IMG/VR virus record: IMGVR_UViG_3300025137_000052 | Location: 1-54,051 of that record | Source of the DNA: a virus | Taxonomy: Duplodnaviria > Caudoviricetes | Reading direction: 5' to 3' (one strand) | Length of the DNA: 54,051 nt | In this document: positions 1,615 through 52,464 of the stretch, in pieces | How positions within the stretch are numbered: the stretch's first letter is position 1 | How the letters are laid out: every line of letters starts with the position of its first letter | Position numbers and translations under genes: made by a program | The notes under the pieces: model-generated | Database searches by the model: none | What the model was told of the DNA's origin: nothing | The model's input: the letters and a program-made list of their open reading frames with translations, nothing else

Positions 1615-1784
1615 TAGCCTCTAGCCACCTTCTTTGCCTTTGCTGACAAATCTTTAAAATGTACTACGGGTTTAGAACTTGCAGTATGTGTTTTACCTGT
1701 GTGTATTTTACCACCTGGCATTTTATGAACAGCACCTTTAAATTCCTTACCTGTTTTAAAATAATGTTTGGTTCCTGCAGCCAT
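1614..1784 (-). CDS. Small basic Lys/His-rich protein, 56 aa
   Basis: Not in ORF track; MAAGTKHYFKTGKEFKGAVHKMPGGKIHTGKTHTASSKPVVHFKDLSAKAKKVARG; TAATG coupling on both sides. Confidence 0.75.
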   Translation of the reverse strand: MAAGTKHYFKTGKEFKGAVHKMPGGKIHTGKTHTASSKPVVHFKDLSAKAKKVARG

Positions 1785-1957
1785 TATTTTTTCATGCCTT
1801 TGCAGCCGCCTTTAACCATGCCGCCTTTACCATATTTTGTAGAGCTAATTACTTTACCGCCCATGCCGTACATGAACTTCCCGTCTTTATTCTTTTTGCC
1901 GACCATTCCGCCGCTCATAAACATTTTTTTCTTATCCTTCTTCATTCCATATGTCAT
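1784..1957 (-). CDS. Small K/G/M-rich protein with repeated GG motifs, 57 aa
   Basis: Not in ORF track; MTYGMKKDKKKMFMSGGMVGKKNKDGKFMYGMGGKVISSTKYGKGGMVKGGCKGMKK; SD aggag upstream. Confidence 0.75.
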   Translation of the reverse strand: MTYGMKKDKKKMFMSGGMVGKKNKDGKFMYGMGGKVISSTKYGKGGMVKGGCKGMKK

Positions 1958-15853: not shown

Positions 15854-17230
15854 TCAAGTCCAACCGCCTGCTGCAATAGGTTTTATATCTCTTTTCTTAG
15901 TTATTATTCCATCGGACACACTATTTACATGTAGCATTAAGTACTGTAAGCCTTCAGCTACGTGTGAATGTTTATTCTTTTCTATGTTTCCGTTCTTCTT
16001 ATGAAACCTGTATCCACCCATCATTGCAGCTTTTAGTCTTGTACATCTCGGATCTAATAGAAATGCTGAGTCACCATCTACTTGACGCATAAGGAAATCA
16101 TCTACCGCTGATAGTCTAGCCGATACATTATTAGTTCTAGCTGGCATAACTCTAAGTCCTTCAGCTTTAATTATATCTACAGCCGAACGCTCATCAGTCT
16201 GAGCTCGTTGTATACCTGCAGGATCTGATATAACAAGTATTGGTGCTCCTGAAAATCTTTCTGTAAGCAATGGCTTTAGTACAGTTCTTATAAATCGTTG
16301 TATACCCATATCAAAGCTTACAGCTTCGTCTAGTATAAGAACTCTACCTCGTGGGTCTTGCTGTCCTATAACAGCTGCAGGTGTTAGCCCTAAATCCATT
16401 CCGATAATAATTGGTCTAACGCCATTCATTATAGGTTGTAAAGTTTCGTTCGCCATATGATAGTCAGGTCTGAAATACTTATACACTGGTTGCCCAGCTG
16501 TGCTTAACCCATATTCCCCATCAATGTAAACTCTTACATATTCATCTGATCTACCTTGTGTATCGTAGTAACCTTCAGGTAGGTTCTCTGTATTTTCTGC
16601 ATCAACGCTTCTACCTGATGGTTGCTTGAATACGTCCCACCCATTATCGTTCGGACTGACTCCATCTGTGGAGTCAAGATGTTCCATTTGATAATACCAC
16701 CACGTATCCATAGTGGGAGGGTTAGTATCCCCCCACATCCCGAACCAAGAAGGACCACCATCTTTAGCAGATGGGAAACGACCAATACGTTTTGACATAG
16801 CATCTACAATGTCTGGGTTTATATCCCGACACTCATTAAACCATGCAAATGTTAATTCTAGCGAGTTCAGGTTTGCTACATCATCTGAATCATCGAGTGC
16901 CCTGAACATAATCTCACACTCAACATCTCCTACTCTTAAGAAGTAAGTTTTAGTTGTTCTCATGTATTCGCCACATACACCAGGTGGGAACCAATCATGA
17001 AATGTTTTTATTGTTGTATCTTGTAGTTGCCTAGCTGTCTCACGAACTATGGCTACCCTTGATTTTCTTATACCTTGCTTGTTGGGTTTTTGCATAGACG
17101 CTCGTCTGACCACTTCAAAACAACTGGCTACTGATTTACCAGAACCTACAGGCCCCATCAGTACACGCATCTTACTGTCAGATACCATAAAGTTTTTACA
17201 AACTCTAGTGGGTGTATAGTCTATTTCCAT
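15854..17230 (-). CDS. terL: Terminase large subunit
   Basis: Walker A GPVGSGKS, Walker B variant AWFNE, motif III DTNPP, nuclease IIIGMDLG. Confidence 0.92.
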   Translation of the reverse strand: MEIDYTPTRVCKNFMVSDSKMRVLMGPVGSGKSVASCFEVVRRASMQKPNKQGIRKSRVAIVRETARQLQDTTIKTFHDWFPPGVCGEYMRTTKTYFLRVGDVECEIMFRALDDSDDVANLNSLELTFAWFNECRDINPDIVDAMSKRIGRFPSAKDGGPSWFGMWGDTNPPTMDTWWYYQMEHLDSTDGVSPNDNGWDVFKQPSGRSVDAENTENLPEGYYDTQGRSDEYVRVYIDGEYGLSTAGQPVYKYFRPDYHMANETLQPIMNGVRPIIIGMDLGLTPAAVIGQQDPRGRVLILDEAVSFDMGIQRFIRTVLKPLLTERFSGAPILVISDPAGIQRAQTDERSAVDIIKAEGLRVMPARTNNVSARLSAVDDFLMRQVDGDSAFLLDPRCTRLKAAMMGGYRFHKKNGNIEKNKHSHVAEGLQYLMLHVNSVSDGIITKKRDIKPIAAGGWT

Positions 17231-33807: not shown

Positions 33808-36657
33808 ATGAATATGTTGGAATTTCTCCAGCAAGTTTTACCAGCTGAGGGGTTTTATGTAACTACTGTCATCAATCCTGACGGTAGACGGCAGGGATTC
33901 TTTAAGTCTGTGGACGAACTTGCACAAGTATGTGAAAGACTTGACAAAACTAATAACAATACTTACTTCGCAATATCTGCGTTTAAGCAAAAGGGTAACA
34001 GGAAACAAGATAACGTAAGAGCTACTAAGGTAGTAGCTATAGATATAGATTGCGGTGGTAATAAACCGTACCCTTCATGGAAAGAAGGACTAGTAGCACT
34101 AGGTAAATTTGTATCTGACCTGAAGTTACCCAAGCCTATGATAGTACATTCAGGTAATGGACTGCATGTATACTGGGTACTAGATGAAGAGCTACCACCT
34201 GAGCAGTGGAAACCATTAGCTGAGGCTATGAAACAAGCCGCTATACAAAAAGAATTTAAGATAGACGCAGGACTTACAGCAAATAGTGCACTAGTACTAC
34301 GACCTGTGGGCACTCACAATCCAAAGAATGGTAATAAAGTTAAGGTATTAGTAGAGTCTGAGGCAACTAGCCCTGAGATTTTAAAGCAACGCTTATCATA
34401 CTACTACGTAGCGGGTGATCACCAAAAGAGCAGCACACATGACAACTCGTTGCTGGATAACCTAGCTACTAAGAATGAATACCAACCAGCTGTAGGCTCA
34501 GTGGTCGCTAAGAAATGTAAACAGATAGAGTGGGCTATAGACAATCAAGATAAGGTAGATGAGCCGTTATGGTACAGTTTAATAGGGGTAGCCGCTTTCT
34601 GCCAAGACCCTGAAACAACAGCAATAGAGTGGTCTAAGGGGCATACTGGATATAGTGAAAGGTCAACTAAGCAGAAGTTAAATCAATGGAAAGAGTCTGC
34701 GTCAGGCCCCACTACCTGTGCTAAGTTTGAATCTAGTAGACCTACAGGCTGTAGGGGTTGTAAATACAAGGGAAAGATAGGCTCACCAGCTAGACTAGGT
34801 GTGCAATATCAAGAAGCTCCCATAATAAAGCAGGCTCCTGACAAAGTAGCTAACGCTGTACCCATGCCTAAACCATTTAAAAGAACTAAAGATGGTATCA
34901 AAGTAACCATTGATGACACAGATATTGATGTATGTAAGTTTGATATATACCCCGTAGGCTATGGTCTTGATGAATCACTAGGCTATGAAACAGTTAGATT
35001 TCATTGGGATAGACCACACATGGGGTGGCAAGAACTGAATTTAAGACAAGCGTACCTTACTGATGGGGCTAGAGAGTTTCCTAGTGCTATAGCAGATCAA
35101 GGTATTGTACTTTACAATAAGAAACAAACGGAGTATTTTCAACTTATGTTAAGGACTTACATGGATGAGCTGAGACAGATTCGCACAATGACGAATCTAT
35201 ACTCAACTATGGGGTGGAAAGAAAAGAATAAATCTTTCTTACTAGGTAACACATTAATCAAGCGTAAGCCTGACGGCTCTGTAGTAGAAGAGACTATAAG
35301 CTTAGCGTCTATAATACAAAGACAAGGTGCGGACTTATATAATACTAAAGGTTCATTAGAACAATGGGTAAACCTCACGTCTATAATGGAGAAAGCCCAT
35401 TTAAAATCACACATGTTTGCATTAGGTGTAGGATTCTCAGCACCACTATATAATTTTACAGGGCTCAAAGGACTAACGATATCTTTGTATGGTCCAACAG
35501 GTGGTGGTAAAACATTAGCTCAGTACTGGGCTCAGTCTATATACGGAGATCCTGAGAAGCTACACTTTGCAGCTAAGTATACTCAGATGGCTTTGTTCTC
35601 ACGTCTTGGTACGTATGGTAATCTACCTCTTACAATAGATGAAGTAACCATGATGAGTGATAAAGAGGTCGGAGACTTCTGCTACTGGGTATCACAAGGG
35701 CGTGACAAGGCAAGGCTTAATAGAAATGCTGAAGAAAGGGACGCTAAGACTTGGGCTACACCTGTACTGGTATCTACCAACAAGTCTTTACAAAGTAAAC
35801 TTATAGCTTCTGGTCTTGATACTGACGCACAGATGGCTAGATTATTAGAATTAACAGTACCTCAGACTGATGTATTTACAAGGAACAGTGATGTAGGTAA
35901 GAAGATATACCAAGCTATCCATACAAACTATGGACATGCAGGCAAAATATTTATAAAGAACTTAGTAGAGATGGGTGAAGAAGGTATTCAATCTATCATA
36001 GCTGAAGCTTCAGATAACTTTGCTAAGAAATATAGATGTAACTTTGGTGGTCAAGAAAGATACTGGGAGCAATCTATTATACTTGCTGACCTATCTATGA
36101 GCCTAGCTAAAGAGTGGGGTCTTATTGATTATGACTATGAGCAGTCTACTGAATGGGTACTAGCACAAATAGGTGCGATACGCAGGTCAGTACAAGAGAA
36201 TCAAGTAGACGCATTCGATCTTGTTGCAGAGTACATGGCTGATTCAGCTGATACATCCGTTACTATCATGCATACAACAGGGCAGAAAGCACAACCTGAT
36301 TTCTCTAGAATACCAAGAGGTGATATAAGAATAAGACTTGATGTGTTTAGGAAATCTGCAGCTGAGCCATTTGATAAAGGAACTATGATGATTGATAGAA
36401 CACATTTTAGGAAGTGGTTATCCATACGTGGTGCTGACTATAAAACATTTAAGCAAGAACTTATGGATGAGAATGTAGTTGCAACTCCTAAATCTGAGAA
36501 GGCTTCACTAGGTAAAGATACTCCTGTTAAATTAGCACAGACATACGTTGTAGGATTTAACTTAACACATCCTAGATTCCAGAGCTTGCTTGATAATGCA
36601 GATGTAGAAGCTGATGATTTATCATACGGTCAGCTACAAGTATTAGATAAGGATTAG
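33808..36657 (+). CDS. Primase (AEP/RepB-like) fused to DUF927-type helicase
   Basis: DIDCG, SGNGLHVYW, LRPVGTHN; Cys cluster; Walker A GPTGGGKT, Walker B TIDE; NYGHAG. Confidence 0.88.
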   Translation: MNMLEFLQQVLPAEGFYVTTVINPDGRRQGFFKSVDELAQVCERLDKTNNNTYFAISAFKQKGNRKQDNVRATKVVAIDIDCGGNKPYPSWKEGLVALGKFVSDLKLPKPMIVHSGNGLHVYWVLDEELPPEQWKPLAEAMKQAAIQKEFKIDAGLTANSALVLRPVGTHNPKNGNKVKVLVESEATSPEILKQRLSYYYVAGDHQKSSTHDNSLLDNLATKNEYQPAVGSVVAKKCKQIEWAIDNQDKVDEPLWYSLIGVAAFCQDPETTAIEWSKGHTGYSERSTKQKLNQWKESASGPTTCAKFESSRPTGCRGCKYKGKIGSPARLGVQYQEAPIIKQAPDKVANAVPMPKPFKRTKDGIKVTIDDTDIDVCKFDIYPVGYGLDESLGYETVRFHWDRPHMGWQELNLRQAYLTDGAREFPSAIADQGIVLYNKKQTEYFQLMLRTYMDELRQIRTMTNLYSTMGWKEKNKSFLLGNTLIKRKPDGSVVEETISLASIIQRQGADLYNTKGSLEQWVNLTSIMEKAHLKSHMFALGVGFSAPLYNFTGLKGLTISLYGPTGGGKTLAQYWAQSIYGDPEKLHFAAKYTQMALFSRLGTYGNLPLTIDEVTMMSDKEVGDFCYWVSQGRDKARLNRNAEERDAKTWATPVLVSTNKSLQSKLIASGLDTDAQMARLLELTVPQTDVFTRNSDVGKKIYQAIHTNYGHAGKIFIKNLVEMGEEGIQSIIAEASDNFAKKYRCNFGGQERYWEQSIILADLSMSLAKEWGLIDYDYEQSTEWVLAQIGAIRRSVQENQVDAFDLVAEYMADSADTSVTIMHTTGQKAQPDFSRIPRGDIRIRLDVFRKSAAEPFDKGTMMIDRTHFRKWLSIRGADYKTFKQELMDENVVATPKSEKASLGKDTPVKLAQTYVVGFNLTHPRFQSLLDNADVEADDLSYGQLQVLDKD

Positions 36658-39600
36658 TGGTCGTTGATAGCTTGTTCGTAAGCGTCCATTAAAAATTGTG
36701 TTTCAGGTCTAATGTTTTTAGGTGCAAACTTCTTATACCTTTCAGCAGCTGGCATTGACCAAGCTCTAAATGCTCTTTGTGCTGAAGGTAACCAGCGTTT
36801 TAACTCAAACTCAGTTCCTCTGTGGTCTTGGTTATGTTCTTTAACTTCTCTTTCTATTTGTCTCATAGTCTTTCTATCTTTATTTATCTTAGCTTTTACC
36901 CAAGCGTCAGTGTATGATTTTTTAATTGCTTTAGCAAAGCCGTCAGTTTGTTTACTCATTCTTATTATATCGTTTTGATAAGTAGCCCCAGCTGGATAGA
37001 AGTTTAAGAATCTAAATACAGTCTGCAATGTAGACACATCATCCATTATTACTTTGCCTTCTTTATTTGTAACCTGTCCGCTAGTTGCATAATCTATTCC
37101 ATCTGTTACGCCTCTTAGTGCACCGAATGGTTGGTTCTTTAGAACATCAGTCCAAGTGGTTGTATCAGATTTTAAACCAATAGCCTCTGCACCTTGTGCT
37201 GCAACTAGACTCAACGTGCCTGCTGTCTGCTCACCAGCTGACCATACAGGCCCTAAAAAGTTTTTTGCTTCTTGCCAAGGATCTGCACCTGCTTTACCTA
37301 CACCTGTCAGAGGTATTAAATCACCGAAGCCTAGTCTTGTAGACACGGTAGCTCCAAGAAAATAATCTAAGAAACCTCTCATGGCTACTGGAGATGCACC
37401 AGGAGCTATCTCTTCTATAAAATCAACAACATTTTTTTCTACGGTTGCAGTTTTGAAACCAAACTTCTGCGTTAAAGTATCAATTAAATCTGTAATGTCA
37501 TCAGCAAATGGTAGTCCTTTTAGACCTGACATTAAAACAAGTAGTGTTAGCATAGCTAATTGTTCTTTCCGACCTAAGTTTTTCATAAGCTCCACAGTAA
37601 TAATTACAAATTGTTTATACATAAAGATGTATTGAAGAACATTACCACGAGCCATAGCAGGTCTATTAAACATTCCATACTCACCCTGAGATGTATTGAC
37701 AGCTCTTATCGCAAACTCTTCTGCAGATTTCTGTATCTCATCTTGTTTTAAATCTCCAGCTTTTTGTAGCTTATCTCTTTGTAATCTATAAGCTGCTAAG
37801 AAAGTTGTTCTTCTATTTAATTGCTCTGTATAAGAGAACACTTTCATCCACCCTCTAACTACACCAGCCAAATTTTTATTAGCCATTAAGCCACCTCTAG
37901 CTGTACCAACAAGAGCATTAAACTGTGCGGCTTGAAGTACACCTTGTTCAGTAGCTTCAAGTAATACTTGAGCTTCGTCTTGAGTTATACCGTACTTATC
38001 TTGTAATGATGTATCTTTAACTAGTTCTTGCATGTGAGTTAGTGTCTCTAACTTAAAATTCTTCATATGTCTTAGTGCTCTAGTCATAGCACCAGCAGAT
38101 TTAGTTAAGCCAAACCCACCACCGTAACCAGTCTTAGCATTATATGTAGATAGGTATGGAATACTATGGCTTACCATTGATATAGTATTAACAAAACCTG
38201 TAGCAACAGATCCACCAAGTTGAGAAGTTACTGTTAGTAGTTTTATAAATGAGCCTGCCTCACCTGATAACAGGTCTTCTGTAGATACATCTATATTTCC
38301 TGCTTTACCATAAAAATCTAATAACCCGCCAGCAACAGACCTATATCTTTTACCTTGACCTTCAGTTTTTACTTGTACTGCTTCTCTATTTTTACCACTA
38401 CCTTTATAAACTGTTATTGTTCTGTCTGTTAATCCAGCTGAGTATCTATACTGGTTAGCATAACTATCGTATTGCTGTTGTGCTATTTTAATTTGCTCAT
38501 CGCTACCTGTAGCTTCAACTTTCTCCATTCTTTCTTTAAGTCTATTAAGTTTATCTCTATTTCCAGCCCAAAGCTTTTCGTCTGTAGTGTATTTGTTAAG
38601 CTTATGTGAGTAAAAAGTTTTACCAGCTGCATGTGACATAGTCTCTAAATGTTCTGATACACTTCTTACTACGTCTGCATTCCAACCAGCAGTACCTGAA
38701 CGTTGTAAACTTTTTCTTGCTCTTTCTGATTGTTTAGTTAAAGCAGTAGTTACTTTTTTCATTTGCTCTGGTTTAAGATTTACATTTAACCTTACAAGAA
38801 TACTTGTAAACTCATTTAAATTCATAGCAGAGGATAGTGGTGCACTAGAACTAACTTCACTGGTTTCTGGTTTTAAATTAACTTCTACATCCTGTAGGTT
38901 TTTATCTTTAAATTTATATTTGGTATCTTTAAAATCATCTTTAAGACTATCAAAAAGCTCTCTTGCATCTTGTTTAGAATCAACTTGGTAATACGGTAGT
39001 ACATTTTTGGTGTGGGAATCTAATTCTATTTCGTTATCATTATCATCAAATGCTCTTAATGTAACTTGATAGTTACCACGTCTAGTAAATGGTACATACC
39101 CACCGAGTATTGTACGCTTAGCATTGAACTCATTGTTTACATTTTTTAAATCTAACAGTAATAAATTTTCTATTGTTTTAGTAACTTGGTCAGCACCTGA
39201 TCTTTCACCACTATATACTTCATGAAGTTGTTGCAAACTATTTACTACATCAGTAAAGTCTTCAGTACCTTTTACTTTAAATATGTCAACTTCTGTAGCG
39301 TCACCAGCAATCCAATCATTAAGTTTGTTTTCATCACCTTTTTTCCATAAAGCACGGTTGACATCTCTTAGAAATAACTCAGCATTTTTCTGAGACTCAG
39401 GGTCATAAGTTATACCTACACCTTCTAGTTTCGCATTTTCAGAATATAGCTCTTGGTATTTTTTTACTATTACTGTAGCCGCAGCTTGATCTTGAGCACT
39501 AGCACCTATACCCCTTTTATTTTCTGCAAAGTCTTTTACGATACTTAGTATGTCTTGTCTTTCTGATATAGTTGCTTCTAAGTTTGACTCTAGTAAATCT

Positions 39601-42600
39601 TTTGCTGCTTCGTTTACAGCATTTCTATTCTCTTCAAATATTTTATAGATTCTATCAGTCACTACAAAGTTAGGTTTGTAGTTTAGCTTATCACCATTAA
39701 CATTTTCTGTGCCGTCTTGTAATATATCTAAAGTAACTTCAAAACCTGCTGCTAATTCTTCTTTAGTCATCATACCTTCAGCTTTCATTCTTTCAAATGC
39801 TGCTTCATTTATAACATTTTCACCTATAGAGTTAGTTGTAATTAAAGACTCAGCATTGTTAATTGCATTTTCATTTCTTGTTGCAGGAACGTTGCTTCTA
39901 TATAAAGCAAAGTAAGCTAATAGTTCCCCAGCCTGAATCAGTTCTTGTTGAGTTGGTCCATCAGTGATGCCTAGTTTATTTAGCACAGAGTTATCTAGAC
40001 TGTGAGTAAACTTAGTCATGTTCGCATATATCTGTTGAAACTTTCTTGTTCTAGCTGTTTGCCCTTGGAACAAACTAAATATTTTGGACAGGCCCTCACT
40101 ACGCAATGCTATGTTATCTAATGTTTGAAATTCTTCTAGTACTTTACCAAACCAACTTGATGCATCACCTTCAGTTAATTGTTTACCTGTTCTTTTAGCT
40201 GAGTTCCACCAAGACTTATATCCAAGAAGACCGCCAGGCTCTCCTCGAAGTGTTATTATTTGATTAGTTAAACTTTTATAAGCCGCAGCCGAACTAGACT
40301 CTGCATTGTAACGACCATATGTACTTTCATTTTTTAATCTTTCTAAATTCTTAACCATCTGATATACCGATACAACACCACTACCACCCGTGCGTAGATT
40401 ATTACGAGATTGAAATACTAAGTACCTTGTCATGTCATCTTGATACTCTCTACCAAAAACATCACGCATAAAGTTTTTAACTGCATTCCAAAATCTTGCG
40501 AGTATGTGAGAGTCTACATGCGAAGCATAGTCAGCTAGTACTTCTTCTATAGCTTCATATCTTTCCTCACCGTTACCTATACGCTGGTCAGACAAAGCTC
40601 TTATCGCTGGATCACTTTGATATATATCATCAAGTATTAATTTTAATTTTGCTCTTGGTACAAACGCACTAAAACCAAAATGTCCTAATGCTTCATGACC
40701 TACAATACTTCGTAGCGTTTGCTCATCTTTAACAAAGTCTGTAAATATTATTATCTGATCGCCAACAGAATAGCCTGAAGCTTTTACAGTTTCAAAGTCG
40801 TCTCTAGCTGCAGCTGCTCTTTCATATAGTTTAGGATTAGTTTCTCGCAGCTCTTGTTTGTTTCTAACTACAGTTACTGTTGGTTTTGTTTTGAATTTTT
40901 TTAATATCTGTTTAACTATTAGTTCTGCTTTACCTTTAGGTACTGGGTTTTTTATTTCTTGTCCACTATCATACCTATAGTTTCTACCTGTATTAGAATC
41001 AGCCTCATCTATTATCTCTTGAGTAGTAGGGCCTGCATCTTTGTCTATCGGTTTAGGTACAAATCTTTCACGACCATCTATATTTGATTTACCTAAATTT
41101 AAGTTACCATCTTTGTCAAAGAAATCTCCTAGTGTTAATCCTTTGGATACAATAAAGCCTGGGTCTGAACCAGCAAATAAATTTTCTAGCTCAACAATTT
41201 TAGAATTTTTAGCTCCTTTATTCTGACCACTAGTAACAGTTAAGTTTGTAATTGAAGTAGTCTTACCATTAATATGTTCAGTTATTAAATCAACTAATCT
41301 ATTAGAAGCCACTTCTTCATTTAGATTTGTAGCACTTTGGTCGTCTTGACCAACTTTATCTGTAGCTGGTCCTTGGTCTGCTTGGTATTTAGCAGGTTTG
41401 TTTCTAACTCTACTACCCATTTGATTTAAAATTGCATCCATAGCATCTAGTCTCTCAGCTATGCCAACCCATTGAGACGGTACTCCTTTTGTTTGCATAC
41501 TTAGATTATCTTTTAGCATAGCCGCAGCTATAAACTCTTCTCTTATAATGTCTAGCTGCTGGTCGGTAAACTGTGTATTTAATAAGAAGTCGGTAACAAA
41601 CTGACGCTCTGATTTATTATTTAATAAAACTCTATTCGCATTTGGATTAGCATTATCACCAAAGTATCCAATCGTAACTAACTCTGCTATAGCATCTCTA
41701 AGTTTATCTACGTCTGACGTAGTCTCACCTTGTAAGCCTTCTATTTCAGCTTGTGCATCTATTATAATCTCAGCATTTGATAATCCTTCTTTCTGCTCAT
41801 CAAACTCTTTTAATGCGAGCTGGCTGTATTTACTTTGTAGTCTAGCCTTATTTATTTCAGGCTTTGTAAATGATGGGTCACTTTCAAACTGTTGTTTAAG
41901 TTCTGGTGATACAGCATCGTAACTTAAAACTGTACCTAAAGATGCCCACACAGTAGCTGGATCTTTAGTAGGCTTAGGCGTTGCTACACGATTTTCCCTC
42001 GACCTATTGGTTGATTCAGCAACTTGTTCTTTGCGATCTTGCCTACCCCTTTTAAGCTGTTCTGCTTTCGATTCTTGTCTCGTAGTCGTGCTTCCATCTT
42101 CAGCTTGTCCTTGGTCTTCTTGACTTTCTGCGGTAACTTGAGCCTCTGGTTCTTGCTGGTTTCTCTCAGCAACTCCTCCGCTATCTGTGGTCGATTCTTC
42201 TGCAGCCACTTCAGCTGGGCTTTGCTCTTGATTGGCATCTTGTGCACCTCCTTTTTCTGGCATTGTTCTTATAGTGAAATCACTCATGGCTTCTACGGCA
42301 TCATCACCAAACGATACTATTAAACCACCAGCATCTTGTACAAATCTTTCGTGTTGTTCTTTTGTACCTTGAAGTTGTACAAAGTTAACTCCGCCAGAAG
42401 GCATAGGTGTAAATGATTCTGTAAGTTCTGCGTTATCTATTTCAGCTTGAACATCTACACTGTTAAAACTTTCACTTAATTCATAGAGAACTCTTCCGCC
42501 TACAATTCCACGGGAAGCTGTTTCAACTGTTCCTGTACTTGTTGCAGTAGGTCTTTCTGCAGCAGCTGTTGCTTCAGCTTCACGTCTTTTAGTCTCTGCT

Positions 42601-44960
42601 TGAGCTTGTTTTACTTGCTCTTTTCTTAATAAGGCTTGTTGTTTTTCTTCTGCTTTCTTACGTTTAGCTTCATTTCTTTCAGCTTGTTTTAAAATTTTTG
42701 CATTTTGTTTATCTAATTTATCTTTTTGTTTTTGCTCATTAACAATTTGTTGCAGTCTATTATCTTGTTCTGCTGTTGTAGTCATATTAGCTTCACGCCT
42801 ACTGATAGCAGCTGTAACAGCTTGAAGGTCTTTGTCTTCTCTAGGAGTTAATTTTTTCTTACCTATTAGTCTATCTCTTTGAGCTATTAACTCTTGTTGG
42901 TCAAGAGTACTTAAAGTTCTACCTGTGTTTAATTTATATAAATCATTGTTTATATCTGTCTCTGGTTTAACTTCAGGCTGAGCAGGAGTTGTTTGAGTAT
43001 TGTCGAGTGTAGGGGTCCCCTGCCCAGCTTGAACTGTTTGTAAAATCGGATTAGGTGCAGGTATAGGTGCATTCACAGTATCAGCAATATTTAAATTAGA
43101 TACAGGCACAGGTGCTGCAGCTGCTACAGGAGTAGGCTGTTGCCTTCTTGTATTTCTAGCACGACCTGTTGGTGTAAGTAAACTTTCTTGTCCTGTTGGT
43201 ATAGGTTGTTGTCCAGCTAAATCTAATTCTAATTGGTCTGGAGATACCTCTGGTTGTGTGGGAACAGGTTGTGGTGCAACTGGATTATCATCAAATAAAT
43301 CTAATTGTTGAGGAGGAACTGGAGGTACAGGTGGAGTAGGTTCTGGAACTCCTGTTGGATTTCTCCTAATGTCTCTAGTTCTTGAAGTTACTTCAGGACC
43401 AAATAATTCACCTTGTGTGCCTACAGGTGGCTCTGGTTCTGTTTTAGGTTTAGTTGGCTCTGGTTTTTTATTACCTTCTGGATTTAATATATCAGCAGTC
43501 TTATCTGTTTTAAGATTTGCAATACCACCGATAGGACCACCAATTGCAAAGCCTGCTGCAAACGCATTGAGTAATCTTCTGTAAGTACCAGCATCTCCTA
43601 GCTGGTCTGTGCCACCTAGTAGTATACTTTCTTGTGCTAATTCAGTAGCACCTTCTAGTGCACCACCAACTGCAATACCTTCACCAGCTCTTCTAAAAAT
43701 ATTTTTAGGACCACGTTTTAATACATCAGCACCTGTCTTCATCTTAGCTGGATTTAAACCTAGTACTTTACCTGCTAAGAAAAACTCAGGTATAACTTCA
43801 GCTGCAGCATAAGGAAACGAACCTAGAAAAGCTGTACCTCTATCACCAACACCAGTCTCTAATACTTCACCATATATATCAGCTTGACCTAATTGTTGAG
43901 CTCCAAGTATAGATGCACCCGCTGCACCACCTATACGACCTTGTGCTCTACCAGCTTTTTCTGCAAATTTAAACCCAGCATATTCTAAAGCATCATCTCT
44001 ATCAGCTCTATTCTTTTTACCTGTAAATGGATTGTTATACTTAACATCGTTTTTAACTTTTGTTGCACCAGCCATACCTGATACTTCACGAAGAAGTTTT
44101 TTCTCGCCATCAGTCATTGATTGATTTAAAGAATATTTTTTAGCAGCAGCTAATACACCTTGCTTAAATGATTCTTTACCCATCAATGCTGATACAGTCC
44201 CACCAAATGCTGTAAATGGGTTTGCACCCCCACCAGCTAGTCCACCTGCTACACCACCAGCTAAAGCTACAGCTATAGACTCTAAGATCATAGGGCCTTG
44301 TTGTGCTAAGTTTGCTACAAACCAGTCGACTAAACCGTTAGATACAAACTCACCTGTTTCGTTTTGAAATTCTCTTTGGAATGGTTGGTTTTTATATAAA
44401 TCTGCTAGTGCTTCGTCAACCCACTCTTTACCTGTCTCTTCTTTACCGTAGAATTGTAAGCCTCTACCAGCAAGTAGCTTTAAATTATCAACACCAATCC
44501 CAAAGTTTCTAGCCATTAGATTACTTGTAGTAGGATTCTTTATACTTTGTATATAAGTAGTAAAACTTTCAGGACTTACTTTAATCCAGTCTTGTGCTAC
44601 ATCCATCGGAGCTGAAGCTGCAGGTCTATTTAAATATTCTTTTGAATCAAGTGCTGACTGATAGTCATCAACGTCCATAGTAGCACCGTTGATAAATAAT
44701 TTTTTAGTTGATGGACTAAATAATACTTGAGGGCCTAAGTCTACTTGCTCAGGTTCTTCAAATTGTGACGGGTCTGTGACTACGTCTTGAAGTCTATTTA
44801 AGTTACTTATTTCTTGGTCTATAAGACCAGCTGAATCTCTAACAACAAAAGGATTCCCTGGTACATCTATCTGTTGTGCTTCACCAATGCTACCACTATT
44901 AAGTGGCTCTAAATCTCCTAGGCCTAATCTTGTACTTGTTGTTCTAGTAGAATCAACCAT
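36654..44960 (-). CDS. Giant internal virion (ejection) protein, PLxRFG/polyvalent-like, with a zincin-like motif
   Basis: 2768 aa; Gly/Ala-rich hydrophobic N-terminal region, HEALGH motif, YVPFTRRG, and a C-terminal EQLNR…AYRL…TSQGEY…NRP helical region. Confidence 0.8.
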   Translation of the reverse strand: MVDSTRTTSTRLGLGDLEPLNSGSIGEAQQIDVPGNPFVVRDSAGLIDQEISNLNRLQDVVTDPSQFEEPEQVDLGPQVLFSPSTKKLFINGATMDVDDYQSALDSKEYLNRPAASAPMDVAQDWIKVSPESFTTYIQSIKNPTTSNLMARNFGIGVDNLKLLAGRGLQFYGKEETGKEWVDEALADLYKNQPFQREFQNETGEFVSNGLVDWFVANLAQQGPMILESIAVALAGGVAGGLAGGGANPFTAFGGTVSALMGKESFKQGVLAAAKKYSLNQSMTDGEKKLLREVSGMAGATKVKNDVKYNNPFTGKKNRADRDDALEYAGFKFAEKAGRAQGRIGGAAGASILGAQQLGQADIYGEVLETGVGDRGTAFLGSFPYAAAEVIPEFFLAGKVLGLNPAKMKTGADVLKRGPKNIFRRAGEGIAVGGALEGATELAQESILLGGTDQLGDAGTYRRLLNAFAAGFAIGGPIGGIANLKTDKTADILNPEGNKKPEPTKPKTEPEPPVGTQGELFGPEVTSRTRDIRRNPTGVPEPTPPVPPVPPQQLDLFDDNPVAPQPVPTQPEVSPDQLELDLAGQQPIPTGQESLLTPTGRARNTRRQQPTPVAAAAPVPVSNLNIADTVNAPIPAPNPILQTVQAGQGTPTLDNTQTTPAQPEVKPETDINNDLYKLNTGRTLSTLDQQELIAQRDRLIGKKKLTPREDKDLQAVTAAISRREANMTTTAEQDNRLQQIVNEQKQKDKLDKQNAKILKQAERNEAKRKKAEEKQQALLRKEQVKQAQAETKRREAEATAAAERPTATSTGTVETASRGIVGGRVLYELSESFNSVDVQAEIDNAELTESFTPMPSGGVNFVQLQGTKEQHERFVQDAGGLIVSFGDDAVEAMSDFTIRTMPEKGGAQDANQEQSPAEVAAEESTTDSGGVAERNQQEPEAQVTAESQEDQGQAEDGSTTTRQESKAEQLKRGRQDRKEQVAESTNRSRENRVATPKPTKDPATVWASLGTVLSYDAVSPELKQQFESDPSFTKPEINKARLQSKYSQLALKEFDEQKEGLSNAEIIIDAQAEIEGLQGETTSDVDKLRDAIAELVTIGYFGDNANPNANRVLLNNKSERQFVTDFLLNTQFTDQQLDIIREEFIAAAMLKDNLSMQTKGVPSQWVGIAERLDAMDAILNQMGSRVRNKPAKYQADQGPATDKVGQDDQSATNLNEEVASNRLVDLITEHINGKTTSITNLTVTSGQNKGAKNSKIVELENLFAGSDPGFIVSKGLTLGDFFDKDGNLNLGKSNIDGRERFVPKPIDKDAGPTTQEIIDEADSNTGRNYRYDSGQEIKNPVPKGKAELIVKQILKKFKTKPTVTVVRNKQELRETNPKLYERAAAARDDFETVKASGYSVGDQIIIFTDFVKDEQTLRSIVGHEALGHFGFSAFVPRAKLKLILDDIYQSDPAIRALSDQRIGNGEERYEAIEEVLADYASHVDSHILARFWNAVKNFMRDVFGREYQDDMTRYLVFQSRNNLRTGGSGVVSVYQMVKNLERLKNESTYGRYNAESSSAAAYKSLTNQIITLRGEPGGLLGYKSWWNSAKRTGKQLTEGDASSWFGKVLEEFQTLDNIALRSEGLSKIFSLFQGQTARTRKFQQIYANMTKFTHSLDNSVLNKLGITDGPTQQELIQAGELLAYFALYRSNVPATRNENAINNAESLITTNSIGENVINEAAFERMKAEGMMTKEELAAGFEVTLDILQDGTENVNGDKLNYKPNFVVTDRIYKIFEENRNAVNEAAKDLLESNLEATISERQDILSIVKDFAENKRGIGASAQDQAAATVIVKKYQELYSENAKLEGVGITYDPESQKNAELFLRDVNRALWKKGDENKLNDWIAGDATEVDIFKVKGTEDFTDVVNSLQQLHEVYSGERSGADQVTKTIENLLLLDLKNVNNEFNAKRTILGGYVPFTRRGNYQVTLRAFDDNDNEIELDSHTKNVLPYYQVDSKQDARELFDSLKDDFKDTKYKFKDKNLQDVEVNLKPETSEVSSSAPLSSAMNLNEFTSILVRLNVNLKPEQMKKVTTALTKQSERARKSLQRSGTAGWNADVVRSVSEHLETMSHAAGKTFYSHKLNKYTTDEKLWAGNRDKLNRLKERMEKVEATGSDEQIKIAQQQYDSYANQYRYSAGLTDRTITVYKGSGKNREAVQVKTEGQGKRYRSVAGGLLDFYGKAGNIDVSTEDLLSGEAGSFIKLLTVTSQLGGSVATGFVNTISMVSHSIPYLSTYNAKTGYGGGFGLTKSAGAMTRALRHMKNFKLETLTHMQELVKDTSLQDKYGITQDEAQVLLEATEQGVLQAAQFNALVGTARGGLMANKNLAGVVRGWMKVFSYTEQLNRRTTFLAAYRLQRDKLQKAGDLKQDEIQKSAEEFAIRAVNTSQGEYGMFNRPAMARGNVLQYIFMYKQFVIITVELMKNLGRKEQLAMLTLLVLMSGLKGLPFADDITDLIDTLTQKFGFKTATVEKNVVDFIEEIAPGASPVAMRGFLDYFLGATVSTRLGFGDLIPLTGVGKAGADPWQEAKNFLGPVWSAGEQTAGTLSLVAAQGAEAIGLKSDTTTWTDVLKNQPFGALRGVTDGIDYATSGQVTNKEGKVIMDDVSTLQTVFRFLNFYPAGATYQNDIIRMSKQTDGFAKAIKKSYTDAWVKAKINKDRKTMRQIEREVKEHNQDHRGTEFELKRWLPSAQRAFRAWSMPAAERYKKFAPKNIRPETQFLMDAYEQAINDH
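41984..42238 (-). CDS. Nested (overprinted) small basic protein, MPxKSKAQ type, 84 aa
   Basis: Alternate frame inside the giant gene; SD aaggagg 8 nt before the ATG; MPIKSKAQLKWLQKNRPQIAEELLRET…LPQKVKK. Confidence 0.6.
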   Translation of the reverse strand: MPIKSKAQLKWLQKNRPQIAEELLRETSKNQRLKLPQKVKKTKDKLKMEARLRDKNRKQNSLKGVGKIAKNKLLNQPIGRGKIV

Positions 44961-49702: not shown

Positions 49703-52095
49703 TATATTGTATTTAATCCCTTAGGTGTTTCACCTAGATGTATTGACCTAATTCTAGCTGATCCTGATACTGCGACTTCAAACGTGTCTGAGCGATAACC
49801 AGAAGGTAATCTAAATATATCACTTGACTGTATAGTTCCTTGAAATACTATTTCTTTATCTATAAATAGCTTAAACGTAACAGGTAATGCTCCTGATAAA
49901 ACTTTTAAGGTTTGTGTTTGACCATCTCCATTTACTGGAAAAGCGTTTAGAGTTCCTATATTTACTTCTCTATTACCGCTGACAGTATAGTCTGTAGGCC
50001 CATTCAAACAACCTAATTGTTGGCTCTTTGCCCACACTGCCGCATTGAACGTAGGCACAGCATTATTATATGATGTTTCGTTTATGTTCTCATCAGTTAT
50101 ATCTGTATAATCTGCAACAACTCTAGCAGCACCCATGTTCATATAGTTTTTTGTAACTATAGTTTTAGACTTCCACTCTAGAGGAGAAAAAATTTCCCCT
50201 TCATTGTCCCATTCTTTTATACTAGTTAAAATATCACTAGACGTATTATCTGTAAAATACATAGTACCTGCTATGCTGTCTGTAAACGCAGATGTAAACG
50301 TATATTGAGAAGTAGTTAAGTAAGGTACTTTATCTCCTCGTTCAAATATAAATGATCCTGTAGAGTGTGACCCAAAATATTTTCCATTATAGTAGTGACC
50401 TACTATTGTTGTAGGGTCTAAATTTTCTGACCATGTATCCCAATCATGAACACTTCCTGTTAATAAAGCTATACCAGCTCCTGGTTTATATGCTGCTAAA
50501 CCACCATGTGTAGCCCAGACAACACCATAACCCATATTGACTACAGATTTTTTGTTAATACACGGATATTCAGTATCAATCCTTTGTGAAGTCATAACTT
50601 CTGGAGTACTACCTGTAACTATATATGGATATTTTTCTGTTAAAACTAATATGTAAGAATCTGTAGACGCTACAGCAACAATGTTTTCATCAAATGTTAG
50701 CCTAAATTTTATAGGCCAAGCATGTGGTTTATCAGGAAATGAGAAGCATAGTTGGTTATCAAAGAAACCTGCCAACATATTGTTGTTTACGTTTGTTAAA
50801 CCTTTCATAGTAGATTTTGGTTTATCATAATCTTCGGACTCTATTATTGTGGATAATCCTGATACTAAAAAATCGTCTGTAAAATTATAAGACCCGTCAC
50901 CCCAGTACCTAGCTGTAAGAGATAACAACTCTGCAACATCGTGAAACAAAGTTCCATTAGCATCTGCTGTAGATGATATATCTCCACCTGTATTACTATA
51001 AGTAAATGTTAATCTATCAACAACACTAAGTACTATCCCACCAGTTACATTAAAATTTCCGCTATCAGTTGTAGTTCCTGATAATTTAAATCTGTCACCA
51101 GCTATCATATTATGAGGAAAAGCTAATTTAACTGTAGCTATATTAGTAGACCCGACACGTGACAACGTAGCTGTCGCTGTTGGAAACCATAAAGTATCAA
51201 GTAGAAAAAAATCTGATGCAGCAGCAGATGTAACACTGCGATATAAATTTATACCCCTTACAAAATTAGCACCACTCGGTTTAGTTTGTGGTATGTTAGA
51301 TACAGTCACTGTTTGACCTTCTTTTATAAACAATTCATTAGATACAGAAGACGGTATAGATTCCTCACCCCAAGGTGTAATGTGTGTATATATGTAAGTT
51401 CTTATCTGTGTATTGCCAGCCATATCAGCTCTACCAGTAGTGTTAGATGTTTTTGATACTGTATCTCCTGGGCTAAAGTATTGAAAATCTGTAGCATTAA
51501 CAACTGTTACTTCAACATTTGTACCGTTAAAAGACTTTGCTTCGTCCGAAGTACCGAAATCTCTTATAGTTACTACATTCCCTGATCTTAAATTATGGTT
51601 GCCAGACCCATAAAAAGTAGCTGTGTTACCAGAATCTCTTTCGTAATGCGTAGCACTTACTACAGAAAAAGATGTTGCTGTGCCTGTTACTGTGGTTGTT
51701 GGTACATCTAAACCTAAATCATAATAACCGCTTGATACAGGATATGGTTCTGAACCTGTTGTAGCTAAATCATAATTACTAACTTTAGGTACTCCATCAC
51801 CTGTAAAATAAAATCTTTGCTCGTTATCTGACGAGTCCGAAGCTTGTAACACATCAACGTCAATAGGCCAACTAAGCCATACTAATGCATTAGTACTTGG
51901 ATCCTTTAGAGCATATATAGTTTCTACTGTACCTAACCTTTCAGTGCTATCTATAATTTTAGGTATCCTATATGGTATAAGGTCTCCAGAATACAGCTTC
52001 ACATTATAAGCTAGTTGTGCTGCAGTAGTGGGTAACAACTCCGAAGAAAATTTTGGAGACTCACCTAAAAAATTTGTTACTTTAATTGATGCCAT
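49702..52095 (-). CDS. Tail/DNA-stabilisation (nozzle-like, beta-propeller) protein
   Basis: F.GE.P…AQLAYN N-terminus, WGEES, FS…PHAWP, FRLPSGY C-terminus. Confidence 0.75.
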   Translation of the reverse strand: MASIKVTNFLGESPKFSSELLPTTAAQLAYNVKLYSGDLIPYRIPKIIDSTERLGTVETIYALKDPSTNALVWLSWPIDVDVLQASDSSDNEQRFYFTGDGVPKVSNYDLATTGSEPYPVSSGYYDLGLDVPTTTVTGTATSFSVVSATHYERDSGNTATFYGSGNHNLRSGNVVTIRDFGTSDEAKSFNGTNVEVTVVNATDFQYFSPGDTVSKTSNTTGRADMAGNTQIRTYIYTHITPWGEESIPSSVSNELFIKEGQTVTVSNIPQTKPSGANFVRGINLYRSVTSAAASDFFLLDTLWFPTATATLSRVGSTNIATVKLAFPHNMIAGDRFKLSGTTTDSGNFNVTGGIVLSVVDRLTFTYSNTGGDISSTADANGTLFHDVAELLSLTARYWGDGSYNFTDDFLVSGLSTIIESEDYDKPKSTMKGLTNVNNNMLAGFFDNQLCFSFPDKPHAWPIKFRLTFDENIVAVASTDSYILVLTEKYPYIVTGSTPEVMTSQRIDTEYPCINKKSVVNMGYGVVWATHGGLAAYKPGAGIALLTGSVHDWDTWSENLDPTTIVGHYYNGKYFGSHSTGSFIFERGDKVPYLTTSQYTFTSAFTDSIAGTMYFTDNTSSDILTSIKEWDNEGEIFSPLEWKSKTIVTKNYMNMGAARVVADYTDITDENINETSYNNAVPTFNAAVWAKSQQLGCLNGPTDYTVSGNREVNIGTLNAFPVNGDGQTQTLKVLSGALPVTFKLFIDKEIVFQGTIQSSDIFRLPSGYRSDTFEVAVSGSARIRSIHLGETPKGLNTI

Positions 52096-52337
52096 TATGT
52101 TCTTGCGTACCCAGGTTTACCCTTAGATGAATTGTCTTTTGATTGTTTACGTTTAACTGCTGCACGTTTCTTACCCGCAGACATACTTCTTGCTTTAGCA
52201 GAAGGCACACACTTGGGGTACTTACCTCTTTTCTCTCCTTTACTTCTACCGCATGGAGGAAATGAGCCATCAGATCTTGGGTTAGCTATGTCTACCCACT
52301 TCTCACCTACCCACTTTTTTAGCCCTTTTTGTGCCAC
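52095..52337 (-). CDS. Small basic protein (DUF5872-like)
   Basis: GLKKWVGEKWVDI…CGR…YPKCVP; GTG start with SD ggaggt. Confidence 0.75.
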   Translation of the reverse strand: MAQKGLKKWVGEKWVDIANPRSDGSFPPCGRSKGEKRGKYPKCVPSAKARSMSAGKKRAAVKRKQSKDNSSKGKPGYART

Positions 52338-52464
52338 TTTTTTTACCTCCAGGTTTTATTCTGCCTGAGCATACGCCTGATGCGTACATGTTTGCATAAG
52401 CTGATGGATACTTTTTAAATTTTCTTTTAGCTGCTGCTTTACCTTTTGCACATAACTTTGCCAT
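52303..52464 (-). CDS. Small basic protein (YPSAYAN type), 53 aa
   Basis: Not in ORF track; MAKLCAKGKAAAKRKFKKYPSAYANMYASGVCSGRIKPGGKKSGTKRAKKVGR; SD gagg. Confidence 0.75.
   Translation of the reverse strand: MAKLCAKGKAAAKRKFKKYPSAYANMYASGVCSGRIKPGGKKSGTKRAKKVGR

What the first reader, a model, noticed from the sequence alone, without database searches (positions are those of the whole stretch)
41984..42251. Overprinted small basic gene with its own ribosome-binding site inside the 2768-aa virion protein gene
Seen: in an alternate frame on the same strand, an 84-aa ORF starts at ATG 42238. A strong SD (aaaggagg; GGAGG at 42251-42247) lies 8 nt upstream. The ORF reads MPIKSKAQLKWLQKNRPQIAEELLRETSKNQRLKLPQKVKK. 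The host frame here is an acidic, apparently disordered linker (EKGGAQDANQEQSPAEVAAEE), the kind of region that tolerates overprinting. From recall, not a search: the first ~40 aa match a pattern of free-standing small phage proteins (MPFKSKAQ..W…P..A…ET…LP.K). Inference: this is a real nested gene, in the same class as the other small Lys-rich late proteins here, and standard annotation would miss it. A 'DAxQEQS' signature in giant phage proteins could be the footprint of the same overprint elsewhere.
Basis: partly seen in the sequence, partly recalled or inferred. Interest (0 to 1): 0.78.

Follow-up and report, generated by a model that had tools for sequence, protein, structure and literature searches.

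The report
Hidden small gene inside giant virion gene
A small, strongly basic protein gene of a widespread but unnamed phage family lies hidden in a second reading frame inside a giant virion-protein gene, and evolution has protected the small gene more than the giant gene's own frame there, so routine annotation misses a real gene.

Summary
On the minus strand, ATG 42238 to stop 41984 encodes 84 aa in the +1 frame of the 2768-aa gene (36654..44960). AAGGAGG lies 8 nt upstream.

On its own this is not beyond chance. GGAGG-N4-9-ATG occurs 8 times in the window against 4.9 expected. The comparative evidence decides it:
- 23 of 27 related viral contigs covering the site keep the ORF.
- All 25 distinct start contexts have ATG or GTG plus an SD-like 4-mer, against 6.1% of control ATGs.
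- Host third codon positions are nearly invariant across the start.
- Host position 3 is the most variable in 45 of 47 gene segments. The two exceptions cover the nested ORF.
- Differences silent in the small frame but not the host frame outnumber the reverse, 229 to 53, with equal opportunity.

A profile search finds 1326 clusters, mostly free-standing 50–120 aa proteins. The same ORF is nested, always +1, in three other host genes. It leaves the predicted 'DAxQEQS' footprint in each.

The small gene is probably the older frame, and the giant's disordered acidic linker reads through it. Function is unknown; I infer a basic late or virion-associated protein. Translation has not been shown directly.

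The parts
36654..44960 (-). Host gene: 2768-aa giant virion protein. Its C-terminal ~520 aa resemble the PLxRFG-type giant proteins of F116-like phages.
   Evidence: ORF. phrog_11358 E 3e-54 on residues 2236-2753. tblastn gives 26% identity, E 1e-24, to F116-like phage proteins, one of them annotated 'PLxRFG domain-containing protein'. It sits in a block of same-strand genes that includes an internal virion protein gene (phrog_511).
42247..42253 (-). Ribosome-binding site AAGGAGG of the nested gene, with an 8-nt spacer from GGAGG to the ATG
   Evidence: Read directly. An SD-like 4-mer is present at -17..-5 in 25 of 25 distinct nested starts in giant hosts, against 187 of 3050 (6.1%) of all ATGs inside the same giant ORFs. 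The local RNA is no more structured than shuffles (z +0.84).
42236..42238 (-). Start codon ATG of the nested gene
   Evidence: Of 35 distinct nested starts, 33 are ATG and 2 are GTG. The T of ATG is the host's third codon position and is T in 35 of 35. Free-standing homologues start at this same Met-Pro.
42119..42238 (-). Nested protein residues 1-40: the conserved N-terminal helical mini-domain (M-P-[IF]-K-S-x-A-Q-x-K-W ... E-T ... L-P)
   Evidence: Invariant columns M1, S5, Q8, K10, W11, N15, P17, A20, E26, T27, L35, P36 among 18 nested copies. AlphaFold2 pLDDT is 91-96 with helices 6-15, 17-26 and 29-33. This is the part shared with the free-standing family.
41987..42118 (-). Nested protein residues 41-84: Lys/Arg-rich tail (long helix 43-64) ending in the N-K-L-x-N-Q motif, which is kept in the copies nested in giant genes
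   Evidence: 15 K+R in 44 residues, pI 11.2. Helix 43-64 has pLDDT 88-96, falling to 50-64 after residue 60. N71, N75 and Q76 are nearly invariant.
41984..41986 (-). Stop codon of the nested gene
41982..42335 (-). Host-frame acidic, low-complexity linker (giant protein residues 876-993) that reads through the nested gene
   Evidence: pLDDT below 50 over these residues; confident structure resumes near residue 1000. pI 4.45 and 7% hydrophobic residues for residues 908-992. One relative (L017) lacks the segment and has no nested ORF.

Best explanation
This is a real, separately translated gene nested in the +1 frame of the giant virion-protein gene.

How it is made: ribosomes start inside the late mRNA at the gene's own AAGGAGG/ATG. 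They make an 84-aa protein of pI 11. It has a conserved ~40-aa three-helix N-terminal domain (MPxKSxAQxKW...ET...LP) followed by a Lys/Arg-rich helical tail.

What it belongs to: a large, unnamed family of small phage proteins that usually stand alone.

Which frame is constrained: the small frame is. The giant gene reads through it as an acidic, disordered linker. The host frame is kept open by the choice of synonymous codons in the small gene.

How it moves: the unit behaves as a cassette. It is exchanged between divergent giant genes, is replaced at the same site by an unrelated small basic-protein gene in some relatives, and sits in the same relative frame in other virion-module genes of other phages.

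Shown: conservation, selection, start signals, free-standing relatives and mosaicism.

Inferred: internal initiation; that the small gene is the older frame; and that the product is a late protein acting with the particle or packaged DNA, with its basic tail binding nucleic acid or an acidic partner. I put that last point at about 30%.
For: Presence in relatives: of 27 related viral contigs whose giant ORF covers the site, 23 carry the ORF, 3 carry a different nested ORF and 1 carries none.

Start signals: an SD-like 4-mer in 25 of 25 distinct starts against 6.1% of control ATGs. Starts are ATG in 33 and GTG in 2 of 35 distinct nested starts.

Host-synonymous sites frozen: host third positions are T 35/35, C 34/35, T 33/35, A 34/35, A 34/35, G 33/35, T 34/35 and A 33/35, while the host amino acids vary.

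Frame switch in variability: in an alignment built on the host protein, host position 3 is the most variable in 45 of 47 60-residue segments. The only two exceptions are 901-960 and 961-1020, which cover the nested ORF. There the most variable position is host position 1, which is nested position 3.

Substitution classes: in 17 sequence pairs, 229 differences are silent in the nested frame and replacing in the host frame, against 53 the reverse. Opportunity in the window ORF is equal, 157 against 155. Mean pairwise amino-acid identity is 0.51 in the nested frame and 0.35 in the host frame over the same columns.

Free-standing family: 1326 representatives at E<=1e-3. These include annotated genes in cultured phages: FlowerPower gp48, Barnyard gp9 and Papyrus gp8.

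Structure: the nested frame folds confidently (pLDDT 83), whereas the host frame over the same DNA does not (pLDDT below 50).

Copy number: the profile finds only this one copy in the 99%-complete genome.

Mosaicism: against L005 the giant genes are 55% identical in nucleotides overall. The only nucleotide match near the site spans gene positions 2723-2970, almost exactly the nested ORF (2723-2977), at 84%, and reaches 97% over the first 90 nt.
Against: No direct evidence of translation or of the protein exists; there is no Ribo-seq or mass spectrometry.

Contigs from four metatranscriptome libraries cover the ORF, but they cannot show a transcript start, strand or translation, and DNA carry-over is possible.

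The single-sequence signal (ORF length, SD+ATG) is within chance.

The window's own peptide matches no Pfam or PHROG family. phrog_1375 is matched only weakly, by 9 of 18 relatives, best E 1.2e-4.

No solved structure resembles the model, so the functional part of the explanation is inference.

The 17 pairs reuse four sequences and are not fully independent.

The copies nested in scaffold-position genes have no SD. However, no gene on those AT-rich contigs has one either.
Confidence: 0.86

Rival explanations
1. Programmed ribosomal frameshift. Ribosomes translating the giant gene slip into the +1 frame near the SD-like sequence. They produce a truncated ~907-aa protein with an 84-aa basic C-terminal tail, and there is no separate small protein.
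For: SD-like sequences inside genes can stimulate frameshifting (established for prfB and dnaX; recalled, not from a call). The alternate frame is open for 10 codons upstream of the ATG in the window.
Against: The alternate frame is closed by a stop only 2-5 codons upstream of the start in several relatives: L006/L007, L014, L020, L044, L013, L058 and L070. The upstream alternate-frame residues are not conserved, and no common slippery sequence is visible. The start codon is kept in 35 of 35 distinct sequences. More than a thousand free-standing homologues begin at this same Met-Pro.
Confidence: 0.03
2. The conservation reflects a function of the host frame or of the nucleic acid, such as a capsid-targeting or cleavage motif DAxQEQSxxEV shared by head-internal proteins, or an RNA or DNA signal. 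On this view the alternate-frame ORF is a by-product.
For: The host-frame motif recurs in several proteins that are likely head-internal: giant virion proteins and a protein encoded in the scaffold position.
Against: Host third codon positions are frozen while host amino acids vary (D/N/S; N/I/V/D/F; Q/K/T; E/I/K/V) in ways that preserve the nested peptide. The variability pattern is that of the nested frame. Free-standing copies have stop codons in the host-like frame (L081, L098, L104). No significant RNA structure was found.
Confidence: 0.04
3. A swallowed relic. A once free-standing small gene was absorbed when neighbouring genes fused into the giant gene. It is no longer expressed, and the signal is residual.
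For: Free-standing homologues and a relative lacking the segment (L017) fit a history of absorption.
Against: Start codon, SD and open frame are kept across giant genes that are only 35-44% identical in protein. Selection on the nested frame is seen even between close pairs, for example 5:1, 14:2 and 28:3. It is the only copy of the family in a near-complete genome.
Confidence: 0.05

Closest known systems
Free-standing small phage proteins of the same unnamed family, all annotated 'hypothetical protein' (e.g. Streptomyces phage FlowerPower gp48, Mycobacterium phage Barnyard gp9, Papyrus gp8; weakly phrog_1375)
   Same: They share the N-terminal ~40-aa domain, starting at residue 1 with M-P-F-K-S-x-A-Q-x-[KR]-W and containing the E-T-P...L-P motif, followed by a basic tail. 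BFVD structure hits are 44-aa uncharacterised phage proteins with TM 0.88 on the target length.
   Different: Those genes stand alone. Papyrus gp8 lies directly after the portal gene, and FlowerPower gp48 lies next to the holin gene. Here the gene lies wholly inside another gene. The copies nested in giant genes also carry an extra ~40-aa C-terminal part with the N-K-L-x-N-Q motif.
Embedded spanin genes Rz/Rz1 of phage lambda (recalled, not from a call)
   Same: A small gene lies wholly inside a larger same-strand gene in the +1 frame, with its own start.
   Different: Rz1 is a lipoprotein with a signal sequence and a lipobox Cys. The nested protein here has no Cys and no hydrophobic leader. 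Its host is a virion protein gene, not a lysis gene.
[quoted passage not shown]
   Same: An inserted segment is read in frame by the host gene without stops while encoding its own protein in another frame. The element is patchily present among host genes, and the host-frame reading is predicted to be a tolerated loop.
   Different: That element encodes a homing endonuclease, which explains its mobility. The 84-aa helical protein here has no nuclease family match. Its spread may be by ordinary recombination or gene fusion.
PLxRFG-domain giant proteins of F116-like Pseudomonas phages (this concerns the host gene)
   Same: The C-terminal ~520 residues align at 26% identity, E 1e-24. phrog_11358 matches at E 3e-54.
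   Different: Only the C-terminal fifth is similar. tblastn of the window's nested peptide against the phage collection hit no F116-like record; those genes were not inspected for a nested ORF.
Small basic virion proteins encoded beside portal genes, such as T7 gp6.7 (recalled; a functional analogy only)
   Same: A small, basic protein encoded within the morphogenesis module.
   Different: No sequence or structural similarity was tested or found. Presence in the virion is unproven here.

Membership tests
Unnamed MPFKSxAQxKW small phage protein family | The N-terminal motif M-P-[FI]-[KR]-S-x-[AK]-Q-x-[KR]-W at the very start of the protein, then P..A, then E-T...L-P | tested here: met
   The window peptide has M1, P2, S5, Q8, K10, W11, P17, A20, E26, T27, L35 and P36. 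These columns are invariant or nearly so in alignments A1 (18 sequences) and A2 (113 sequences).
Unnamed MPFKSxAQxKW small phage protein family | Significant profile similarity to free-standing members | tested here: met
   The profile of 18 nested copies finds 1326 representatives at E<=1e-3 and 35 at E<=1e-10 among 1.84 billion. 243 proteins of 43-158 aa are found in a second collection.
phrog_1375 (function unknown) | HMM match to the PHROG profile | tested here: inconclusive
   The window peptide has no match. 9 of 18 relatives match weakly, best E 1.2e-4.
Same-strand nested (overlapping) protein-coding gene | The alternate frame is open and its start signals are conserved in relatives | tested here: met
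   23 of 27 contigs covering the site carry the ORF. 25 of 25 distinct start contexts have an SD-like 4-mer plus ATG or GTG.
Same-strand nested (overlapping) protein-coding gene | Purifying selection on the alternate frame beyond what the host frame imposes | tested here: met
   229 against 53 differences with equal opportunity. The codon-position switch is confined to the overlap, with 45 of 47 segments normal. Host third positions are frozen.
Same-strand nested (overlapping) protein-coding gene | The product is detected (translation or protein) | not testable with these tools
   Only metatranscriptome contigs cover the region. These show neither translation nor transcript ends.
Embedded o-spanin (Rz1-like) | A lipoprotein signal with a lipobox cysteine | tested here: not met
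   The 84-aa sequence contains no cysteine and no hydrophobic N-terminal segment. Its GRAVY is -1.15.
Programmed +1 frameshift site | A conserved shift site with the alternate frame open from that site, and no need for a start codon | tested here: not met
   Stops lie 2-5 codons upstream of the conserved start in several relatives, the upstream sequence is not conserved, and the start codon is always kept.
Out-of-frame homing-endonuclease insertion (ShiLan-like) | The alternate frame encodes an HNH or other homing endonuclease | tested here: not met
   There are no Pfam matches for 18 members beyond noise. The model is all-helical, 84 aa, with no PDB match.
Out-of-frame homing-endonuclease insertion (ShiLan-like) | The insertion is read through in frame by the host and is patchily present among homologous host genes | tested here: met
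   The host frame is open in all carriers. L017 lacks the segment, and L016, L030 and L040 carry another small gene at the same site.
DUF6496 (PF20106), for the alternative cassette in L016/L030/L040 | A Pfam match above the gathering score | tested here: not met
   L016's peptide scores 15.2 bits against a cut-off of 24 (E 0.029), and L030's peptide has no match. phrog_2423 matches the first 22 residues of both at E 1e-7.
PLxRFG-type giant virion protein (host gene) | Similarity of the C-terminal region to annotated members | tested here: met
   phrog_11358 E 3e-54. tblastn E 1e-24 to F116-like phage proteins, one of them annotated as PLxRFG domain-containing. Presence in the virion was not tested.

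The most novel reading that the evidence does not exclude
Small basic-protein genes of this family, and at least one unrelated family, may be portable 'read-through cassettes'. Their Lys/Glu/Gln-rich codons leave the -1 register free of stops if T is avoided at third positions. A neighbouring virion gene can therefore extend or fuse across them, or they can recombine into such a gene, without breaking either product. Giant polyvalent virion genes and scaffold-position genes would then routinely hide functional small genes. The acidic 'DAxQEQS...' linkers seen in many giant phage proteins would be the shadow of those genes rather than evolved linkers. The giant gene in this lineage would hold a dedicated slot in which alternative small genes are swapped.
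Probability: 0.4. Interest if true: 0.8.

Novelty: new variant of a known kind. Interest (0 to 1): 0.68.

Why it matters
Nested genes are known in phages, but few are documented in large double-stranded DNA phages, and gene callers forbid them by design.

Here one small-protein family is embedded in the same relative frame in at least four host genes. Three of these were compared by BLASTP and share nothing outside the overlap. None of the 10 copies looked up is in a 15-billion-protein collection.

This has three consequences:
- It gives a concrete, searchable footprint for finding hidden genes in phage giant proteins.
- It shows that some 'disordered acidic linkers' in such proteins are dictated by another gene.
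- It offers a clean genetic handle. The nested start can be destroyed by a change that is silent in the host frame, which could finally assign a function to a very common family of unnamed small phage proteins.

Tried and rejected
- Pfam and PHROGs on the window peptide gave only noise: DUF3103 at E 0.057 and phrog_35967 at E 0.22.
- blastn of the region against 50,697 phage records found no match.
- tblastn of the window peptide against the same records gave only an E=5 hit.
- ESM Atlas gave three viral 'hypothetical protein' clusters at score 0.86. That is below the 0.9 level and is only a lead.
- Foldseek against PDB found nothing at E<=0.001; the best hit was E 8.4.
- The complex prediction of the nested protein with the window's putative portal gave 'no answer' (score 0.00). 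This is not evidence either way.
- The promoter and terminator scan of 41500-42800 was not above shuffles: 3 against 2.7 promoter-like sites.
- A search for flanking repeats found only short imperfect two-copy families and no inverted repeats, so nothing suggests insertion scars.
- RNA folding around the start gave z +0.84, meaning no special structure.
- Metatranscriptome contigs cover the ORF in 4 of 4 runs laid, but they cannot show strand, ends or translation. One contig (X22) departs from the window at 42252, which I read as a variant with a different upstream flank.
- Of 6 variant positions inside the ORF in those contigs, 4 are silent in the nested frame and 2 are silent in the host frame. 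That is too few to weigh. I dropped a seventh, at 41982, because it lies after the stop.
- One search used coordinates one base off, so its result is void. It was redone.
- Literature searches listed no paper on this family or on a gene nested in such virion genes. I saw only the listings, except for the abstract of PMC11855218. Supplements were not consulted.
Full report
**What is at the site**

On the minus strand, an ATG at 42238 opens an 84-codon frame ending at the stop at 41986-41984. AAGGAGG lies upstream, with GGAGG at 42251-42247, 8 nt before the ATG. The frame is +1 relative to a 2768-aa ORF, 36654..44960.

The window is a whole IMG/VR virus record of 54,051 bp, estimated 99% complete. 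It looks like a podovirus, encoding a terminase, a portal or adaptor, an internal virion protein, DNA polymerase, helicase and primase.

The giant protein's last ~520 residues match phrog_11358 (E 3e-54). They also match the giant proteins of F116-like Pseudomonas phages at 26% identity and E 1e-24. One of those is annotated 'PLxRFG domain-containing protein'.

The nested peptide has pI 11.2, with 26 Lys+Arg in 84 residues. The host-frame segment over it has pI 4.45 and only 7% hydrophobic residues.

**Is the single-sequence signal more than chance?**

No. GGAGG-N4-9-ATG occurs 8 times in the window against 4.9 expected, and 13 of 100 shuffles reach 8. Another 89-aa same-strand alternate-frame ORF lies inside the terminase gene. 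The window peptide matches no Pfam or PHROG family and nothing in 50,697 phage records. The case therefore rests on comparison with relatives.

**Relatives of the giant gene**

A search of viral contigs with the giant protein returned 50 loci. For 28 of them the giant ORF is at least 1900 aa long. One of these (L031) starts downstream of the site, which leaves 27 covering it.
- 23 carry the same nested ORF in the same +1 frame.
- 3 (L016, L030, L040) carry a different nested ORF at the same place.
- 1 (L017) has neither and lacks the segment.

The nested peptide is better conserved than its host. L005 and L008 are 81% identical in the peptide, although their giant proteins are about 41% identical to the window's.

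**Start signals**

All 25 distinct start contexts in giant hosts have ATG or GTG preceded by an SD-like 4-mer at -17..-5. Only 187 of 3050 (6.1%) of all ATGs inside the same giant ORFs have one.

**Which frame is selected?**

Four tests agree.

1. Codon positions in an alignment built on the nested peptides. Mean pairwise nucleotide difference is 0.386, 0.316 and 0.496 at nested codon positions 1, 2 and 3, which is a coding signature for the nested frame. Amino-acid identity is 0.51 in the nested frame against 0.35 in the host frame.

2. The same test on an alignment built on the giant proteins, to remove alignment bias. Host position 3 is the most variable in 45 of 47 segments of 60 residues. 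The only two exceptions are 901-960 and 961-1020, which cover the nested ORF (residues 908-992). There host position 1, which is nested position 3, is the most variable. In 901-960, host position 3 is the least variable.

3. Frozen host-synonymous sites. Across 35 distinct nested starts, host third positions are almost fixed: T 35/35, C 34/35, T 33/35, A 34/35, A 34/35, G 33/35, T 34/35 and A 33/35. Meanwhile the host residues change (D/N/S, N/I/V/D/F, Q/K/T...) in ways that keep M-P-[FI]-K-S-K-A-Q.

4. Substitution classes. In 17 pairs, 229 differences are silent in the nested frame and replacing in the host frame, 53 are the reverse, and 165 replace in both. All possible single changes in the window ORF split 157, 155 and 434. 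Four sequences are used twice in these pairs, so the pairs are not fully independent.

**The family**

A profile of 18 nested copies, searched against 1.84 billion cluster representatives, found 1326 at E<=1e-3 and 35 at E<=1e-10.
- Most are 50-120 aa, and the match starts at residue 1.
- Some are N-terminal domains of longer proteins of up to 575 aa, including ones with cupin or ParB-like nuclease domains.
- A second collection gave 243 hits. Every name given is 'hypothetical protein', and none of the 120 listed has a Pfam domain.
- The closest full-length hits come from contigs of 564-762 bp. On such fragments the giant gene is cut, which may be why the small ORF was called there.
- None of 10 nested peptides is itself in the 15-billion-protein collection.

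Free-standing members occur in cultured phages. They are annotated in FlowerPower (gp48, beside the holin), Barnyard (gp9) and Papyrus (gp8, directly after the portal gene). They are unannotated in P-RSP2 and C75C1.

The genome holds only this one copy.

**Structure**

With a 113-sequence alignment, AlphaFold2 gives mean pLDDT 83. The predicted helices are 6-15, 17-26, 29-33 and 43-64. No PDB fold matches. BFVD returns only uncharacterised small phage proteins. The host frame over the same DNA is predicted unstructured, with pLDDT below 50 for residues 876-993 from a 24-row alignment.

**Beyond this gene**

A search of viral contigs with the family alignment gave 53 loci. In 48 of them the small ORF lies wholly inside a longer same-strand ORF, always with the small ORF at host +1. 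In 5 it stands alone. The search pattern came from nested copies, so this ratio is biased toward nested cases.

The hosts are:
- the PLxRFG-type giant gene (28 loci);
- a ~400-aa acidic ORF lying between the portal gene (phrog_6547) and a virion structural protein gene (phrog_13704), which is the scaffold position (18 loci);
- a 2109-aa giant gene of another family, phrog_32588 (L095);
- one ambiguous 78-aa ORF (L105).

A fourth host is the 3,860-aa CDS of GenBank MW202828.1, where the nested ORF is not annotated.

BLASTP finds no similarity between the three host types compared, apart from the overlapped stretch.

The scaffold-position copies lack an SD. No gene on those 31-34% GC contigs has one either.

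**Mobility and direction**

- Against L005, the giant genes are 55% identical in nucleotides overall and 27-52% in the flanks. Identity is 97% over the first 90 nt of the nested ORF. The only blastn match near the site spans gene positions 2723-2970, and the nested ORF is 2723-2977.
- At the same slot, L016, L030 and L040 carry an unrelated 59-60-aa basic ORF with its own SD and ATG or GTG. It matches phrog_2423 at E 1e-7 and DUF6496 below threshold. It shows the same bias, 15 against 4 in one pair.
- Free-standing copies use T at third positions, which creates TAA or TGA in the host-like frame. Nested copies never do at the position shown: C 31, A 4, T 0.
- The third frame never spans the ORF, in 0 of 53 loci.

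From these points I infer three things. The small gene is the older frame. The host linker is laid over it. The -1 register is the only one that synonymous choices can keep open, which would explain the constant frame relation.

**Mechanism and function**

I take internal initiation on the late mRNA as the mechanism; this is inferred. Function is not established. The protein is basic. Its domain sits at the extreme N-terminus whenever it is fused to other domains. Its gene lies in or beside head-morphogenesis genes in several phage groups, although in the cyanophage P-RSP2 it lies about 7 kb from one end of the record, in a run of small hypothetical-protein genes. My best guess, at about 30%, is a late protein that acts with the particle or packaged DNA. 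A predicted complex with the putative portal gave no answer.

**Known comparisons**

- Lambda Rz/Rz1 (recalled) shares the +1 embedded layout, but Rz1 is a lipoprotein and this protein has no Cys.
- The ShiLan out-of-frame HNH insertion in actinophage methylase genes (abstract of PMC11855218) is likewise read through in frame by its host gene, but it encodes a nuclease.
- Five literature searches listed nothing on this family or arrangement.

**Verdict**

This is a real nested gene and a new variant of a known kind. Translation remains to be shown.

Noticed in passing
L016:12354-12536, L030:12228-12407, L040 (same site as the window's nested ORF): A different 59-60-aa basic ORF occupies the same slot of the giant gene in the +1 frame, with its own SD and ATG or GTG. 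It matches phrog_2423 at E 1e-7 and DUF6496 below the cut-off. Five close relatives and three 47-aa relatives are present in the protein collection.
   Followed up: partly
window 1360-1957 (-) and 52095-52464 (-): There are clusters of other small, very basic ORFs of 53-84 aa with pI 10.2-11.8. Some have Gly/Lys-rich repeats, and one has a YPSAYANMYASG-type motif. The nested-gene profile does not match them.
   Followed up: no
window giant gene, protein residues ~1420-1430 (about 40670-40700, - strand): An H-E-x-x-G-H motif (VGHEALGHFGF) is conserved in distant relatives (LAHETLGHFGF in L030 and L043, LAHETIGHFGF in L016). It looks like a zinc-peptidase-type site inside the giant virion protein. 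That reading is from recall and was not tested.
   Followed up: no
L107 = GenBank MW202828.1 7108-12224 (nested ORF at locus 2501-2632): A complete uncultured podovirus genome annotates a 3,860-aa CDS as 'reticulocyte binding/rhoptry protein'. It contains an unannotated 43-aa member of the family in the +1 frame, with no SD.
   Followed up: partly
L106 (Prochlorococcus phage P-RSP2, locus ~2501-2620) and L108 (phage C75C1, locus ~2501-2600): Free-standing members of the family lie in unannotated gaps between annotated genes of deposited phage genomes.
   Followed up: partly
window 42252 (RNA-library contig of run X22): A metatranscriptome contig matches the window from 41954 to 42252, which covers the nested ORF plus its SD. 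It then continues for 76 letters unlike the window. This suggests a natural variant with the same cassette in a different upstream context.
   Followed up: no
L043:~12250-12440 (giant protein just upstream of its nested ORF): This relative's giant protein carries Gly/Tyr-rich repeats (YTGQLKNG...GQGTYTYADGSVYTGSF...) that resemble MORN-type repeats. That resemblance is from recall. The repeats are absent from the window's protein, so the region around the slot is a hot spot of domain gain and loss.
   Followed up: no
window 16534-16803 (-): An 89-aa same-strand alternate-frame ORF with an ATG lies inside the terminase gene. It was not examined for conservation and serves here only as a chance control.
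   Followed up: no
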